From NCBI RefSeq assembly GCF_001457595.1, contig NZ_LN831039.1:3690001-3722000 (forward strand): 32,000 bases of DNA. The letters are read 5' to 3'. Within the stretch, counting starts at the first letter, position 1. Every line of letters begins with the position of its first letter. This DNA is from Mycolicibacterium smegmatis. GTDB taxonomy: Bacteria > Actinomycetota > Actinomycetes > Mycobacteriales > Mycobacteriaceae. This document shows positions 6,061 through 32,000 of this stretch, in pieces. The translations under genes and the position numbers were made by a program. Under the pieces are notes generated by a model. The model made no database searches and was not told where the DNA came from. It saw only the letters and a program-made list of their open reading frames with translations.

Positions 6061-7684
6061 CACCCCGTCGGCCGAGGCCCAGGTGTGGTTCGACCGCGGC
6101 ATGGTGTGGGCCTACGCGTTCAACCACGGAGAAGCCGTCTACTGCTTCGAACGGGCCCTGGAGTACGACCCCGGTCTCGCGGCCGCGCACTGGGGTATCG
6201 CCTACTCCGTGGGACCCAACTACAACACGGCGTGGGATACCTTCGACCCGGTGGACCTCGCCGCATCTCTGGCACGCGCCAGAGCCGAACTTGCCGCCGC
6301 GGCGTCGGGTCGCGCCTCGGCCGTCGAGCGCGATCTGATCGCCGCGCTGCACAAGCGTTTTCCCACCGACGACCCCGAGGACACCGAGGCCCTGCTGGCC
6401 GGCCATCACGCGTACGCCGACGCCATGGCGGCGCTGGCCGGCACCTATCCCGACGACATCGACGTGCAGACCCTGGCCGCCGACGCGCTCGTCAACGTCA
6501 CGGCGTGGGCGCTGTGGGACGGCCGCACCGGTGAGCCCGCACCGGGATCCCGTGTGCTGGAGGCCAAATCGATCCTCGACCGGGCGCTCGCCACGCCCGC
6601 GGGCCGCGAGCATCCCGGTGTGCTGCACCTCTACATCCACACCATGGAGATGTCGACCACGCCGCAGGCCGCTCTGCCCGCCGCCGACAGGTTGCGCAAC
6701 CTCGTTCCCGACGCGGGACACCTGCGGCACATGCCCAGCCACATCGACGTGCTGTGCGGTGACTACCGCAGCTCGGTGGTGTCCAATCTGTCTGCGGTCG
6801 AAGCCGATCGACGTTTCGTCGAACATCGCGGGCCGCTGAACTTCTACTCGCTCTACCGCGCGCACGATCTGCATTTCGTGGTGTACTCGGCGATGTTCGA
6901 AGGGCAGTCGCAGATCGCGCTGAGCGCCGCCGACGAACTCGCCGCGCAACTCACCCCCGATCTGTTGTCGGTGCCCTCGCCGCCGATGGCCGACTGGCTG
7001 GAGGCGTTCGTCCCGCTGCGCATCCACGTCCTGGTGCGCTTCGGCCGGTGGGACGACCTGATCGCCGAACCGTTGCCGAGCGACCAGACGCTGTACTGCA
7101 CCACCACCGCCACCGTCCACTACGGCCGCGGCGTCGCCCACGCCGCCAAGGGCGACCTGTCGCGCGCCGACGCCGAACGCGACGCGTTCATCAAGGCCTA
7201 CGACCGGATCCCGGAGACGCGGTACCTGTTCAACAACACCAGCCGTGACATCCTGGCCATCGCGGGCGCCATGCTCGACGGCGAGATCGCTTACCGCCGA
7301 GGCGATCACGATGTGGCGTTCGAGCACCTGCGCCGGGCGATCGCCCTCGACGACAACCTGCCGTACGACGAACCGTGGGGCTGGATGCAACCCACCCGCC
7401 ACGCCTACGGCGCGCTGTTGCTCGAGCAGGGCCGCGTCGAGGAGGCCGCACAGGTCTACGCGGCCGATCTCGGCCTCGATCCCACACTGAACCGCTCGTG
7501 CCAGCACCCCAACAACGTCTGGAGCCTGCACGGCTATCACGAATGCCTGCGCAGGCTGGGCCGCGACGCCGAGGCCGCGATCATCGGCAAGCAACTCGAA
7601 CTGGCGCTGGCCCGCACCGACGTGCCGATCAACGCGTCGTGCGCGTGCCGGCTGGAGATCACCGATCCCTGCTGCGGCAACTGA
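5999..7684 (+). CDS. tetratricopeptide-repeat (TPR) protein with a Cys-rich C-terminal tail
   Basis: The track ORF starts at 5951; the ATG at 5999 (MTGAAPNDPYYRLGSYHRP...) seems more likely. Repeated Ala/Tyr/Leu helical-hairpin pattern (WFDRGMVWAYAFNHGEAVYCFERALEYDPG, AFEHLRRAIALDDN...). Ends in NASCACRLEITDPCCGN. Confidence 0.75.
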   Translation: MTGAAPNDPYYRLGSYHRPTDTPSAEAQVWFDRGMVWAYAFNHGEAVYCFERALEYDPGLAAAHWGIAYSVGPNYNTAWDTFDPVDLAASLARARAELAAAASGRASAVERDLIAALHKRFPTDDPEDTEALLAGHHAYADAMAALAGTYPDDIDVQTLAADALVNVTAWALWDGRTGEPAPGSRVLEAKSILDRALATPAGREHPGVLHLYIHTMEMSTTPQAALPAADRLRNLVPDAGHLRHMPSHIDVLCGDYRSSVVSNLSAVEADRRFVEHRGPLNFYSLYRAHDLHFVVYSAMFEGQSQIALSAADELAAQLTPDLLSVPSPPMADWLEAFVPLRIHVLVRFGRWDDLIAEPLPSDQTLYCTTTATVHYGRGVAHAAKGDLSRADAERDAFIKAYDRIPETRYLFNNTSRDILAIAGAMLDGEIAYRRGDHDVAFEHLRRAIALDDNLPYDEPWGWMQPTRHAYGALLLEQGRVEEAAQVYAADLGLDPTLNRSCQHPNNVWSLHGYHECLRRLGRDAEAAIIGKQLELALARTDVPINASCACRLEITDPCCGN

Positions 7685-30094: not shown

Positions 30095-30231
30095 GCAGGG
30101 CGATCGCCGCGGCGCTGGGAATGCGCTGCGGGTCAACCGTATTCTCGGCATTCCCGGCCGTGCCCGGCGTGCGCTGTAACGTGCACACGGCCGCCCGTGC
30201 CCGGACAATCGATACACGTGACGGCAGAAAG

Positions 30232-30909
30232 GTGAGCCCGTTGAACGTCGCCCCAGCCGAACTGACCGGCACCGAACAGGCAGTTCTGCTGGTGCTCATG
30301 GCCGAGTCGCGGCCCGTGCCCAATCCGGACCTCGAACGGCTCGGACCGAAGCTCGACAAGCGGGGCCGGGACCGGCTCAACGAACTGGGGCTGATCGAGA
30401 CCACACCGGGGCGTCCGCTGGTCCACGAACTCACCGACGCGGGTTGGGCGGTGTGCCGCCAGTTGCTCGCCGCCGACACACCGCCGCGGTCGTCCGGCCA
30501 GGGCCGCGCTCTCTACACCGTGCTCAGAGCGCTGCACCGCCACCTCGAACGCGCAGATCTCGCGCCGGCCGACGTGTTCCTGCCTGGCGACTCGCCGGCG
30601 CCTGCCGCCGTCGACACGCCGGGCACCGCGAGCGGCTACGCGCTCGCGCCGCGCGCCGAGGAGGCCCTGCGGGCCGCCTACGCGAGGCTCGCGGACCGGC
30701 CCGGCGGCTGGGTCGGCCTGGCCCGGCTGCGCGGCGAGGTGCCCGATCTGCCGCGCAAAGAGGTCGACGCGGCTTTGATCAGCCTCTACCAGCAGCCGGG
30801 TGTGAGCCTGATTCCCGAAGAGAACCAGAAGACGCTGACCGAAGCCGATCGCGCCGCCGCCGTGCGCATCGGTGACCAGAACAAACACCTGATCGCGATC
30901 GAGTCCTGA
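30232..30909 (+). CDS. uncharacterised protein with two winged-helix-like modules
   Basis: The track ORF begins at 30121, but its first 37 codons look non-coding. Likely starts are GTG 30232 or TTG 30241 (GAAAGGTGAG just upstream). N-terminal MarR/PadR-like wH (LTGTEQAVLLVLMAESRPVPNPDLERLGPKLDKRGRDRLNELGLIETTPGRPLVHELTDAGWAV). Second wH-like module (GWVGLARLRGEVPDLPRKEVDAALISLYQQPGVSLIPEENQKTLTEADRAAAVRIGDQNKHLIAIE). The stop overlaps the next start (TGATG). Confidence 0.6.
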   Translation: MSPLNVAPAELTGTEQAVLLVLMAESRPVPNPDLERLGPKLDKRGRDRLNELGLIETTPGRPLVHELTDAGWAVCRQLLAADTPPRSSGQGRALYTVLRALHRHLERADLAPADVFLPGDSPAPAAVDTPGTASGYALAPRAEEALRAAYARLADRPGGWVGLARLRGEVPDLPRKEVDAALISLYQQPGVSLIPEENQKTLTEADRAAAVRIGDQNKHLIAIES

Positions 30910-32000
30910 TGCAGCAACACGAACGGGAAGCGCTCAGCGCGCTGCGGCTCACCTGGGCGCCCACGGCCGACGACCTGTGGCACTCGCAGGGCGCGCTGCA
31001 CGTGCCCGGCCTGCACGAACGGGCCATGACCGACGTGCTTGCCGCGTTCGACGACGCCGCGCGCGAGACCGATTCCAGCCCGCTCGGGGTCGTCGTGCGC
31101 GGACCGGCCGGTTCGGGCAAGACGCACCTGCTCGGTCAGGTGCGCGAACGCGTGCAGACCGCGGGCGGCTTCTTCTTCCTGGTCGAACTGCTCGACGCCA
31201 CGAGCTTCTGGCAGTCCGCACGCGCGGGCATCCTGGAGAGCCTCGGCCGCCCCGGCGGGGAGCGGGAAACCCAGCTCAAAGACCTGCTGTGGGAACTGGC
31301 GTCGATCGCCCACATCTCGCGGGCCAATCGCCGCGCCATCATCGGCGACGACGACCTGACGCCGGAGATCCTCACCGATTTCGTCACCGCGCTGCACAAG
31401 GCCAGGCGCCAGACGGTCAAACGCGCCCACCACACGCTGCGGGCGCTGGTCCTGCTGGGCGCCGCGGATCTGGACCTGCAGGACATCGGCGAGGCCTTCC
31501 TCGTCGGCAACGTGGGCACTCTCGGCGCGACCGACGGCTCGGAGGCCGAACTCGCGGCGTGGGGCCTGCCCGTGCCCACCCTGACCCCACAGGAATCGGT
31601 GCGGGACATCTCGCGGTTGGTCGCACTGGCCGGGCCCGCGGTGCTGGCCCTCGACCAGATCGACACGCTGTTGGCGCAGTCCATCGAGCGGACCGCCGAT
31701 CGTGTGTCCGGCGAGAACTCCGAGCCCGCGAGCCTGGACAACCGCGACCTCGAGCACGTGGCCCACGGGCTGATGTCGGTGCGCCAGACCATGCGCCGGA
31801 CGGTGTCGGTGGTCGCGTGTCTGCCCGCGGCGTGGGAGGCCATCGAGAACCGGGCTACCGCGAGTGTGCACGACCGGTTCCGCACCACGGCGCTGCTGCA
31901 GGGCCTGCCGACGCCCGATATCGGCCGCGCGATCCTGGAGCGCCGGTTCTCGGCGACCTACAGCGCCGTCGGGTTCAGCGCGCCGTACCCGAGTTGGCCG
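30909..32000 (+). CDS. large P-loop NTPase (AAA+, Orc1/Cdc6- or AAA_16/STAND-like N-terminal module); the 3' end runs off the right edge of the window
   Basis: Absent from the ORF track because it is open at the window edge. I translated 364 codons from ATG 30909 with no stop: MQQHEREALSALRLTWAPTADDLW...VVVRGPAGSGKTHLLGQVRERV (Walker A, nt 31101-31124)...AVLALDQIDTL (Walker B-like, nt 31641-31664)...VSVVACLP...TALLQGLPTPDIGRAILERRF (AAA+ lid-like). Confidence 0.75.
   Translation, partial: MQQHEREALSALRLTWAPTADDLWHSQGALHVPGLHERAMTDVLAAFDDAARETDSSPLGVVVRGPAGSGKTHLLGQVRERVQTAGGFFFLVELLDATSFWQSARAGILESLGRPGGERETQLKDLLWELASIAHISRANRRAIIGDDDLTPEILTDFVTALHKARRQTVKRAHHTLRALVLLGAADLDLQDIGEAFLVGNVGTLGATDGSEAELAAWGLPVPTLTPQESVRDISRLVALAGPAVLALDQIDTLLAQSIERTADRVSGENSEPASLDNRDLEHVAHGLMSVRQTMRRTVSVVACLPAAWEAIENRATASVHDRFRTTALLQGLPTPDIGRAILERRFSATYSAVGFSAPYPSWP

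What the first reader, a model, noticed from the sequence alone, without database searches (positions are those of the whole stretch)
30095..32000. Translationally coupled tandem winged-helix protein and large AAA+/STAND-like NTPase of unknown function, cut by the window edge
Seen in sequence: after a run of ordinary metabolic genes, a protein of about 225 aa with two winged-helix-like modules ends in TGATG, which overlaps the start of an ORF that stays open for at least 364 codons to the window end. That ORF has a Walker A (GPAGSGKT, residues 65-72), a Walker B-like hhhhDxxD (VLALDQID, residues 245-252) and an Orc1/Cdc6-style lid (LPTPDIGRAILERRF). The roughly 60-residue leader before the P-loop, followed by GxxGxGKTxL, resembles the AAA_16 modules at the front of STAND NTPases. 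Inference: a DNA-binding wH partner coupled to a long P-loop NTPase is an architecture common in conflict/defence and signalling modules, such as antiviral STANDs and BREX/Pgl-type ATPases. I could not match either protein to a named family: BrxC/PglY N-termini as I remember them look different, and conservon CvnD is a small GTPase. An 8-bp inverted repeat GGGAATGC-N23-GCATTCCC (30117-30155) sits in the upstream gap. This is the best candidate in the window for an undescribed system, but only the N-terminal NTPase module is visible.
Basis: partly seen in the sequence, partly recalled or inferred. Interest (0 to 1): 0.7.

Follow-up and report, generated by a model that had tools for sequence, protein, structure and literature searches.

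The report
Nuclease-less Orc-like/HerA DNA motor pair
This is the Mycolicibacterium smegmatis gene pair MSMEG_3595/MSMEG_3596: a small two-winged-helix DNA-binding protein coupled to a roughly 1,070-residue protein that joins an Orc/Cdc6-like ATPase to a HerA/FtsK DNA motor. It is a version, lacking the nuclease gene, of a widespread and untested three-gene module predicted to capture foreign DNA, and it sits in a genetically tractable model organism.

Summary

The window is M. smegmatis. The cut ORF is MSMEG_3596, 1068 aa. It is not a STAND sensor NTPase. It has an Orc/Cdc6-like AAA+ module, then a restriction-endonuclease-like (REase-like) α/β domain, then a HerA/FtsK ATPase with an inserted four-helix bundle.

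The wH + ATPase pair is constant in all 80 related mycobacterial loci. In 18 of them, and in Tsukamurella, Rhodococcoides, Nonomuraea, Micromonosporaceae and a Methylobacterium megaplasmid, a DUF559 nuclease gene sits directly upstream. The smegmatis/fortuitum clade lacks that gene.

This matches the Orc/CDC6-coupled "HerA/FtsK capture systems" predicted by comparative genomics (NAR 2024). No experimental test of that class turned up in the papers I could search.

Against a typical defence island:
- The pair is vertically inherited.
- It evolves at the rate of the neighbouring metabolic gene.
- It is under strong purifying selection.
- No relative was found in phage genomes or viral contigs.

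Published tagging shows MSMEG_3596-GFP at discrete cellular sites. The inverted repeat is specific to M. smegmatis.

Verdict: a new variant of a computationally known kind, of moderate interest.

The parts
30114..30158 (.). Inverted repeat: perfect 8-bp core 30117-30124 / 30148-30155, extending to 11-nt arms with one mismatch and a 23-nt spacer. Specific to M. smegmatis.
   Evidence: The right arm lies in a 10-bp insertion absent from 23 related species. About 0.5 such repeats are expected per 147 bp.
30155..30193 (.). Second perfect 8-bp inverted repeat, CGGCCGTG / CACGGCCG, also with a 23-nt spacer. It brackets the conserved -10-like hexamer.
   Evidence: It is not conserved in the alignment.
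30177..30182 (+). TAACGT, a TANNNT -10-like hexamer inside the block GCT(A/G)TAACGTGC, which is conserved in most of the smegmatis/fortuitum clade (absent from L020-L022). Candidate promoter of the operon.
   Evidence: Alignment of upstream regions. The E. coli-type consensus scan finds nothing. The promoter assignment is an inference.
30224..30237 (+). Conserved ribosome-binding block GCAGAAAGGTGAGC (core GAAAGG at 30227-30232), 8 nt before the TTG start.
   Evidence: GCAGGAAGG is conserved in all 25 aligned upstream regions.
30241..30909 (+). Tandem winged-helix protein, 222 aa. It is MSMEI_3513 and presumably MSMEG_3595. The N-terminal module is MarR-like; the C-terminal wH carries the near-invariant motif LIPEENQKxLTxxDRxAAVxIGxQxKHLIAIE.
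   Evidence: dN/dS is 0.05-0.38.
30909..32000 (+). N-terminal 363 codons of MSMEG_3596 (1068 aa in full): the Orc/Cdc6-like AAA+ module. The gene is cut by the window edge.
   Evidence: It is 361/363 identical to M. smegmatis P0195. The ORBIT oligo maps to its 3' end.
31101..31124 (+). Walker A GPAGSGKT (residues 65-72).
   Evidence: G65, G68, G70, K71 and T72 are invariant in 31 of 31 homologues.
31641..31664 (+). Walker B-like VLALDQID (residues 245-252). D249, Q250 and D252 are invariant. Q occupies the position of the usual catalytic E.
31872..31883 (+). DRFR (residues 322-325), invariant or nearly so. Candidate arginine-finger/sensor segment on strand 5.
   Evidence: The functional assignment is an inference.
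31902..31946 (+). LPTPDIGRAILERRF (residues 332-346), the start of the lid helix.
   Evidence: The model predicts a helix at 336-354.

Best explanation
The pair is M. smegmatis MSMEG_3595/MSMEG_3596. It is a two-gene version, lacking the nuclease gene, of a widespread three-gene DNA-targeting module. The full module has three parts:
1. a roughly 350-aa protein with a C-terminal DUF559 (Vsr-like) endonuclease domain;
2. a roughly 220-aa protein with two winged-helix domains;
3. a roughly 1,050-aa dual ATPase, built as Orc/Cdc6-like AAA+ – REase-like α/β domain – short helical domain – HerA/FtsK ATPase with a four-helix insert.

**Shown here:** the domain order, intact nucleotide-binding motifs in both ATPases, the conserved coupling of the two genes, and the existence of the three-gene form.

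**Inferred mechanism:**
- The wH protein binds DNA and positions or recruits the large protein.
- The Orc/Cdc6-like module has an invariant Walker A but DQ in place of DE. It would act as a slow ATP-dependent loading or assembly switch.
- The HerA/FtsK module has canonical GSGSGKT and MDEAQ motifs. It would form a ring that translocates double-stranded DNA.
- In three-gene relatives, the DUF559 nuclease would cut the captured DNA. This resembles NurA-HerA, SIR2-HerA and DUF4297-HerA, in which a HerA hexamer organises or activates an effector.
- In M. smegmatis no nuclease is encoded next to the pair. The pair would then act as a DNA-bound translocase on its own, use a nuclease encoded elsewhere, or rely on its own REase-like middle domain.

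Its most likely target is incoming or non-chromosomal DNA, but this is the least secure step.
For: **Architecture.**
- Pfam finds AAA_22/AAA_16 at residues 50-175 and DUF87/HerA at 643-766 in the 1045-aa orthologue.
- The AlphaFold2 model of M. smegmatis P0195 has a mean pLDDT of 79. It shows a five-strand AAA+ core, an α-β-β-β-α-β domain at 449-567, and a HerA domain at 657-1045 with four inserted helices at 777-868.
- The top 50 Foldseek PDB matches are all HerA/FtsK-superfamily ATPases: mostly HerA (including its NurA, SIR2, DUF4297 and TdpAB complexes), plus VirB4 and a type IV coupling protein. E-values reach 2e-10.
- PADLOC matches mad8 at 2.7e-19 and several HerA models on residues 635-1005.

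**Motif invariance** in 31 homologues.

**The pair is a unit.** The TGATG overlap occurs in about 75 of 80 loci. The wH + ATPase pair is constant across at least three different genomic contexts.

**Three-gene form.** A DUF559 gene overlaps the wH gene in:
- Tsukamurella
- Rhodococcoides fascians
- Nonomuraea and Methylobacterium aquaticum
- Micromonosporaceae
- one unidentified assembly
- 18 of 80 mycobacterial loci, plus a 54-aa remnant in L046.

**Breadth.** 619 clusters at 50% identity score E<=1e-30, many aligned end to end. Members include Desulfobulbaceae and Ca. Magnetomorum.

**Literature.**
- The domain set matches the Orc/CDC6-coupled HerA/FtsK capture systems, including the four-helix-insert HerA version and an accessory 2-4 wHTH protein (PMC10853773).
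- MSMEG_3596-eGFP expressed from its native locus localises to distinct sites rather than diffusely (PMC6299477; gene identity confirmed).
- MSMEG_3595 co-purified with RNA polymerase cross-linked to nucleic acids (PMC7092591).
Against: - No nuclease gene lies beside the pair in the window or in about 60 of 80 related loci.
- Even so, both genes are under strong purifying selection there (dN/dS 0.04-0.15 and 0.05-0.38).
- The ATPase co-diverges with the adjacent ferredoxin reductase at the same rate (r = 0.85; mean identity 0.765 against 0.769). This is unlike fast-turnover defence islands.
- No relative was found in phage genomes or viral contigs.
- There is no PADLOC system match.
- Flanking genes are metabolic.
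- The Orc/Cdc6 and REase assignments of the N-terminal and middle domains rest on weak Pfam hits, motifs and secondary-structure order. Domain-level fold searches could not be run.
- M. smegmatis mc2 155 is a famously permissive phage host (my own knowledge).
- The MSMEG_3595-to-wH mapping is inferred from gene adjacency, not verified by sequence.
Confidence: 0.55

Rival explanations
1. The pair is a domesticated housekeeping factor. In Mycolicibacterium it no longer serves conflict. It acts instead on the cell's own DNA, as a chromosome-associated loader/translocase in repair, segregation or handling of replication intermediates.
For: - The pair is vertically inherited and co-diverges with the neighbouring metabolic gene at an equal rate.
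- dN/dS is low.
- Synteny is stable over many species.
- The nuclease was lost repeatedly without decay of the pair.
- The protein is expressed and focal in growing cells.
- In Rhodococcoides and Tsukamurella the cassette occupies the same gap between the S10 and spc ribosomal operons.
Against: - The same module crosses phyla, reaching a Methylobacterium megaplasmid and Desulfobacterota. This points to horizontal spread of an accessory unit.
- The ancestral form carries a dedicated endonuclease.
- No slow-growing mycobacterium appeared among the named hits, though those lists were truncated.
- No known repair or segregation genes are linked to it.
Confidence: 0.28
2. The wH protein is only a MarR-type autorepressor of the operon. 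The large ATPase works alone.
For: - The N-terminal module's best structural matches are MarR-family repressors.
- Some databases name homologues MarR family.
- A conserved promoter-like block lies upstream.
Against: - Conserved translational coupling implies co-production of the two proteins.
- The second wH domain has a near-invariant 30-residue motif unlike any regulator family.
- No Pfam MarR match reaches even E<=1.
- The published class includes a multi-wHTH target-recognition subunit.
- The inverted repeat proposed as an operator is not conserved.
- This reading and the main one are not mutually exclusive.
Confidence: 0.12
3. This is the first reader's reading: an antiviral STAND-type or BREX/Pgl-type NTPase, whose C-terminal sensor or effector lies beyond the window.
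For: - AAA_16 scores above its cut-off.
- There are weak nSTAND5, NACHT and Avs2 P-loop hits.
Against: - The STAND and Avs2 hits cover only about 25-35 residues around the P-loop, at E 1e-4 to 0.1.
- The full protein has no repeat or sensor domain and instead ends in HerA/FtsK.
- No BREX/Pgl genes (PglZ, PglX, BrxC) lie nearby in any of the loci with annotated or Pfam-scanned genes.
- No PADLOC BrxC or PglY hit was found.
Confidence: 0.04
4. The pair is a remnant of an actinomycete conjugative element, with an FtsK/TraB-like DNA-transfer ATPase and a wH protein that recognises a clt-like site.
For: - There are weak matches to FtsK_SpoIIIE, TrwB, TraD and VirB4 models.
- Foldseek hits include VirB4 and a type IV coupling protein.
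Against: - No integrase, replication or other transfer genes lie in any of the annotated or Pfam-scanned contexts.
- The pair is vertically inherited.
- In the plasmid database it occurs only on mislabelled chromosomes or a megaplasmid.
- Similarity to HerA is stronger than to FtsK or TraB.
Confidence: 0.03

Closest known systems
Orc/CDC6-coupled 'HerA/FtsK capture systems' (comparative-genomic prediction; NAR 2024, PMC10853773)
   Same: - The domain set is the same: Orc/CDC6-type AAA+, a REase-like domain right after the AAA+ core, helical/wHTH elements, and a HerA/FtsK ATPase with an inserted four-helix bundle.
- There is a separate protein with multiple wHTH domains.
- In relatives there is an active REase gene.
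- The proposed logic is the same: the Orc-like part localises the complex on DNA, the HerA part intercepts DNA, and the nuclease cuts it.
   Different: - The window's locus has no active REase gene.
- The paper describes mobile neighbourhoods, whereas here the pair is a stable, vertically inherited chromosomal resident.
- The paper does not name DUF559 as one of its two REase families, and I could not check whether this exact family is in its dataset.
- No experimental data on the class turned up in the papers I could search.
HerA-effector complexes: NurA-HerA, SIR2-HerA, DUF4297-HerA, TdpAB
   Same: - The C-terminal 400 residues share the HerA fold (Foldseek E 2e-10 to 1e-6).
- Walker A and B motifs are intact.
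- In three-gene relatives the ATPase is paired with a nuclease.
   Different: - The HerA part is fused behind an Orc-like AAA+ and a REase-like domain, rather than having a free HAS-barrel N-terminus.
- The partner nuclease is DUF559, not NurA, SIR2 or DUF4297.
- Sequence identity is only 12-18%.
- All curated HerA models score far below their cut-offs.
MADS Mad8 (PADLOC model PDLC04140)
   Same: This is the best defence-database match for the HerA/FtsK-type domain: 2.7e-19 over residues 635-960.
   Different: - Mad8 is a protein of about 314 profile positions that sits inside an eight-gene methylation-associated operon.
- None of the other mad genes is present here.
- The similarity is at domain level only.
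DndH of DndFGH
   Same: The published tree places the Orc/CDC6-coupled HerA/FtsK domains of this class in the same clades as DndH HerA domains. There is also a weak PADLOC DndH hit.
   Different: There are no DndF/G genes, no phosphorothioate-modification genes, and no SWI2/SNF2 or Dam-like domains.
STAND NTPases (Avs/AVAST) and BREX BrxC/PglY
   Same: Both have an N-terminal Orc/Cdc6-STAND-type P-loop module with a long leader, and matches to AAA_16.
   Different: - There are no sensor repeats and no BREX partners.
- Matches are limited to the P-loop region.
- The C-terminus is a second, HerA-type ATPase.
MarR-family winged-helix regulators
   Same: The N-terminal module of the small protein has a MarR-like wHTH plus helices (Foldseek probability 1.0, TM-score normalised to the target 0.4-0.6).
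   Different: - No sequence-family match was found.
- There is a second wH domain with a unique invariant motif.
- The gene is translationally coupled to an ATPase gene.

Membership tests
Orc/CDC6-coupled HerA/FtsK capture system (PMC10853773) | Orc/CDC6-family AAA+ ATPase | tested here: inconclusive
   - AAA_16 (38 bits, above its cut-off) and AAA_22 match.
- The LDQID.L, DRFR and lid motifs are Cdc6-like.
- NCBIfam Orc1/Cdc6 models reach only E 0.03-0.15.
- No domain-level fold search was possible.
Orc/CDC6-coupled HerA/FtsK capture system (PMC10853773) | Inactive REase domain inserted between the AAA+ core and its C-terminal wHTH | tested here: inconclusive
   - The model shows an α-β-β-β-α-β unit at residues 449-567, followed by helices at 571-615.
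- Conserved E449, D450, D478, D496, E502 and H504 lack a canonical (D/E)xK.
- No Pfam hit was found.
- The fold was not verified by structural comparison.
Orc/CDC6-coupled HerA/FtsK capture system (PMC10853773) | HerA/FtsK ATPase (one version with an inserted four-helix bundle) | tested here: met
   - Pfam DUF87 matches at 8e-11.
- Foldseek matches HerA at 2e-10.
- Helices at 777-791, 802-820, 826-834 and 846-863 are inserted in the ATPase core.
- This domain lies outside the window, in the full-length M. smegmatis protein.
Orc/CDC6-coupled HerA/FtsK capture system (PMC10853773) | Active REase-fold nuclease encoded in the neighbourhood | tested here: not met
   - It is absent from the window and from L084 within 10 kb.
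- It is present as DUF559 in 18 of 80 mycobacterial loci and in six distant relatives.
- Whether DUF559 is one of the paper's two REase families is unknown.
Orc/CDC6-coupled HerA/FtsK capture system (PMC10853773) | wHTH component or separate multi-wHTH protein | tested here: met
   The model shows two wH modules with MarR-type structural matches. The gene is always adjacent to the ATPase gene.
Orc/CDC6-coupled HerA/FtsK capture system (PMC10853773) | Mobile gene neighbourhood | tested here: not met
   - Within Mycolicibacterium the pair is vertically inherited (r = 0.85 with the adjacent FdR) and flanked by metabolic genes.
- Across phyla the distribution does imply transfer.
STAND NTPase (AVAST/Avs, NACHT, nSTAND) | STAND NTPase core followed by a sensor or repeat domain, with or without an effector | tested here: not met
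   NACHT, nSTAND5 and Avs2 hits fall below their cut-offs and are restricted to the P-loop. The C-terminal two-thirds are a REase-like domain plus HerA, not repeats.
BREX / Pgl (BrxC/PglY) | BrxC/PglY-type ATPase together with PglZ and PglX/BrxX genes | tested here: not met
   No PADLOC BrxC or PglY hit was found. No such neighbours occur in any of the annotated or Pfam-scanned loci.
Canonical HerA (NurA-HerA; anti-phage HerA) | Match to the curated equivalog models, and a NurA, SIR2 or DUF4297 partner | tested here: not met
   NCBIfam HerA models score 19-25 bits against cut-offs of 800-970. No such partner genes are present.

The most novel reading that the evidence does not exclude
In Mycolicibacterium the module may have shed its nuclease and been kept for tens of millions of years as a nucleoid-associated, focus-forming dual-ring DNA motor. 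It would have either a nuclease-independent function or its own cryptic nuclease in the REase-like middle domain. One possibility is exclusion or processing of incoming DNA by translocation alone. Another is a new chromosome-maintenance activity. That would make MSMEG_3595/3596 the first tractable example of a 'capture' system working without a dedicated effector.
Probability: 0.25. Interest if true: 0.7.

Novelty: new variant of a known kind. Interest (0 to 1): 0.5.

Why it matters
- **No experimental test found.** I found none in the searchable literature for Orc/Cdc6-HerA capture systems, although the family is large: 619 clusters at 50% identity, across several phyla.
- **The model organism is tractable.** This instance lies in M. 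smegmatis mc2 155, the standard mycobacterial model and the host of thousands of sequenced phages. A tagged allele already exists and shows discrete localisation.
- **Nature has already run an informative comparison.** Related species carry the same pair with or without the DUF559 nuclease. This allows a direct test of what the two ATPases and the wH protein do with and without an effector.
- **The inheritance pattern raises a question.** It shows a conflict-type module can persist like a core gene. Is it still immunity, or has it been co-opted?

Tried and rejected
- **First protein search.** The search with the 363-aa fragment returned only 57 clusters, all 636 aa or shorter. At first this looked like a rare or short family. 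A profile search and exhaustive HMMER showed these were frameshifted fragments of a large family of roughly 1,050-aa proteins.
- **My own frame error.** My first synteny script used a wrong frame for the wH gene (30233 instead of 30232/30241). This made the gene look poorly conserved. I corrected it.
- **CATASP hit.** The match for the wH orthologue (E 0.067) is noise and did not recur.
- **Wrong ORF in Methylobacterium.** ORF 6200-7321 is in the wrong frame. ORF 6240-7301 is the DUF559 homologue.
- **Negative sequence searches.** A profile of the N-terminal half found nothing significant in PDB sequences. Pfam found nothing on the middle region.
- **Phage and viral searches.** They found nothing beyond weak P-loop hits.
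- **Literature.** Searches for DUF559 with HerA or DUF87 found nothing relevant. The supplement of PMC10853773 that is held here has no taxon names.
- **Inverted repeat as operator.** Rejected, because the repeat is not conserved.
Full report
**1. The observation**

- The upstream ORF is open from 30121 to 30909.
- Alignment with 35 homologues, plus a conserved GCAG(G/A)AAGG ribosome-binding block 8 nt upstream, puts the real start at TTG 30241, giving 222 aa.
- Its stop overlaps the ATG at 30909 (TGATG). The same junction is found in about 75 of 80 orthologous loci.
- The second ORF runs for 363 full codons to the window edge.
- It carries GPAGSGKT (residues 65-72), VLALDQID (245-252) and LPTPDIGRAILERRF (332-346).
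- Pfam AAA_16 and AAA_22 both score above their cut-offs.
- An AlphaFold2 model of the small protein shows two winged-helix modules joined by a variable linker. The first module resembles MarR-type regulators.

The 8-bp inverted repeat is real, but it is not a conserved feature.
- Such repeats occur about 0.5 times per 147 bp in this window.
- Its right arm sits in a 10-bp insertion unique to M. smegmatis.

What is conserved upstream is a TAACGT -10-like hexamer (30177-30182) within a conserved block, and the ribosome-binding site.

**2. Identity and full anatomy**

The window is from Mycolicibacterium smegmatis.
- The fragment is 361/363 identical to a 1068-aa M. smegmatis protein.
- That protein is annotated only as 'helicase HerA/DUF87 domain-containing protein' or 'ATPase' (UniProt A0QYB1, MSMEI_3514).
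- A published ORBIT targeting oligo for MSMEG_3596 matches the 3' end of this gene exactly. The ATPase is therefore MSMEG_3596.
- The wH gene is MSMEI_3513 and, by adjacency, MSMEG_3595.
- On a longer M. smegmatis contig the ATPase gene is followed by convergent sugar-ABC-transporter genes, MSMEG_3598/3599. The operon therefore has two genes.

Pfam, PADLOC, NCBIfam and an AlphaFold2 model (mean pLDDT 79) give this layout:
- **Residues about 55-355:** an AAA+ core with a large helical insert (97-241) and a lid.
- **Residues 367-394:** two helices.
- **Residues 449-567:** an α-β-β-β-α-β domain that looks like a restriction-endonuclease fold but lacks a canonical (D/E)xK.
- **Residues 571-615:** helices.
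- **Next:** a disordered linker.
- **Residues 657-1045:** a HerA/FtsK ATPase with four inserted helices (777-868).

All of the top 50 PDB fold matches belong to the HerA/FtsK superfamily: mostly HerA and its NurA, SIR2, DUF4297 and TdpAB complexes, plus VirB4 and a type IV coupling protein.

In 31 diverse homologues:
- Both Walker A motifs are invariant.
- The HerA Walker B is a canonical MDEAQ.
- The AAA+ Walker B is invariably D-Q-x-D, with Q where the catalytic E normally sits.

This suggests an ATP-binding switch with slow hydrolysis in the AAA+ module and an active motor in the HerA module. That reading is an inference.

**3. Relatives and context**

A scan of one genome per species found 108 close relatives, and I kept 80 loci. 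All are Mycolicibacterium/Mycobacterium species at 63-82% identity, with full-length ORFs of 1030-1071 aa in 75 of them. The wH + ATPase pair is constant across at least three flanking contexts.

A roughly 350-aa gene with a C-terminal DUF559 (Vsr-like endonuclease) domain lies immediately upstream of the wH gene, usually overlapping it, in:
- 18 of the 80 mycobacterial loci
- Tsukamurella
- Rhodococcoides fascians
- Nonomuraea and a Methylobacterium aquaticum megaplasmid
- a Micromonosporaceae MAG
- one unidentified assembly.

One mycobacterial locus keeps only a 54-aa remnant of this gene. The three-gene cassette is therefore the widespread and probably ancestral form. The smegmatis/fortuitum clade, and several other lineages, carry a two-gene derivative without the nuclease.

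Exhaustive HMMER finds 619 clusters at 50% identity with E<=1e-30. Most of the 150 best hits listed align nearly end to end at 33-54% identity. Named members include Natronoglycomyces, a Desulfobulbaceae MAG and Ca. Magnetomorum. No relative was found in phage genomes or viral contigs. None of the three proteins matches a PADLOC system.

**4. Comparison with what is known**

A comparative-genomics paper (PMC10853773) describes 'HerA/FtsK capture systems' in which HerA/FtsK domains are coupled to a particular Orc/CDC6 AAA+ version. The core domains listed there are:
- an Orc/CDC6 ATPase;
- an inactive REase inserted after the AAA+ core;
- an active REase;
- HerA/FtsK, in one version with an inserted four-helix bundle;

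The domains are said to be combined in single or multiple polypeptides. A 2026 follow-up restates the theme.

The present architecture fits this description point by point, including the four-helix insert. Three caveats apply:
- The Orc/CDC6 and REase assignments could not be confirmed by domain-level fold search.
- The active nuclease is missing from this locus.
- The neighbourhood here is not mobile.

I found no experimental work on the class.

**5. Evidence on function**

*For action on DNA as a complex:*
- the domain logic;
- the conserved translational coupling;
- MSMEG_3596-eGFP, expressed from its native locus, localising to distinct sites rather than diffusely (PMC6299477);
- MSMEG_3595 appearing among proteins co-purified with RNA polymerase cross-linked to nucleic acids (PMC7092591).

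*For an anti-invader role:*
- the dedicated endonuclease in the ancestral cassette;
- the cross-phylum spread;
- the precedent of HerA-effector defence complexes.

*Against a typical defence island:*
- dN/dS is 0.04-0.15 for the ATPase and 0.05-0.38 for the wH protein, including in nuclease-less lineages.
- Pairwise divergence of the ATPase tracks that of the adjacent ferredoxin reductase (r = 0.85) with the same mean identity.
- Flanking genes are metabolic.
- In Rhodococcoides and Tsukamurella the cassette occupies the same gap between the S10 and spc ribosomal-protein operons.

**6. Verdict**

It is wrong in its specifics: the NTPase is not a STAND sensor, the system is not wholly undescribed, and the inverted repeat is not an operator.

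I file it as a new variant of a computationally predicted kind, because it lacks the nuclease and is vertically fixed. The most likely mechanism is:
- DNA recognition by the wH protein;
- ATP-dependent loading by the Orc-like module;
- DNA translocation by the HerA ring;
- cleavage by DUF559 in three-gene relatives.

In M. smegmatis the effector step is open. Interest is moderate (0.5). The family is large, no experimental test of it turned up, and it sits in an ideal model organism. Against that, the architecture has been noted in silico, and the defence role is unproven and somewhat at odds with its evolutionary behaviour.

Noticed in passing
L089/L090 6307-11165 (Rhodococcoides fascians); L081 6284-11252 (Tsukamurella tyrosinosolvens): In two genera of Mycobacteriales the three-gene cassette (DUF559 + wH + ATPase) lies in the same place: the gap between the S10 and spc ribosomal-protein operons, between rpsQ and rplN. 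In Rhodococcoides a TerD/AIM24 gene accompanies it. In Tsukamurella it sits with VapBC and a DEAD/DEAH helicase. This is either an ancient position or a recurrent insertion site.
   Followed up: partly
L046 9181-9342: A 54-aa C-terminal remnant of the DUF559 gene sits directly upstream of the wH gene in a Mycolicibacterium hodleri strain. It looks like a snapshot of nuclease loss by deletion.
   Followed up: no
It brackets the conserved TAACGT hexamer. It is not conserved in related species.
   Followed up: partly
window 30250-30295: A 15-nt inverted repeat, 87% complementary with a 16-nt spacer, lies inside the first codons of the wH gene.
   Followed up: no
L036, L052, L055, L080 (ATPase ORFs of 855, 789, 558 and 578 aa): A few loci have prematurely terminated ATPase ORFs. 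Two (L052, L055) are metagenome-assembled genomes. L036 and L080 are isolate genomes, and the L036 form is also annotated at 855 aa in NCBI. These are either occasional pseudogenes or assembly errors.
   Followed up: no
L082 6240-11249 (Methylobacterium aquaticum pMaq22A_1p, 1.57 Mb): The complete three-gene cassette occurs on an alphaproteobacterial megaplasmid, with 38% identity in the ATPase. Full-length relatives also occur in Desulfobacterota. This implies transfer of the module between phyla.
   Followed up: partly
L091 1-7171: In an unidentified assembly (GCA_037975565.1) the cassette is preceded by eight co-oriented genes with no Pfam match at all. This could be a mobile element or a prophage-like region. 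The ATPase there is split into several ORFs.
   Followed up: no
L057, L060, L071, L073, L075, L078 upstream of the pair (for example L057 6283-8640): In one Mycolicibacterium clade the pair lies next to a 785-aa protein with an N-terminal GKAGTGKS Walker A motif. I take it to be a RecD/Pif1-like helicase, judged by eye from its sequence and not checked with any tool.
   Followed up: no
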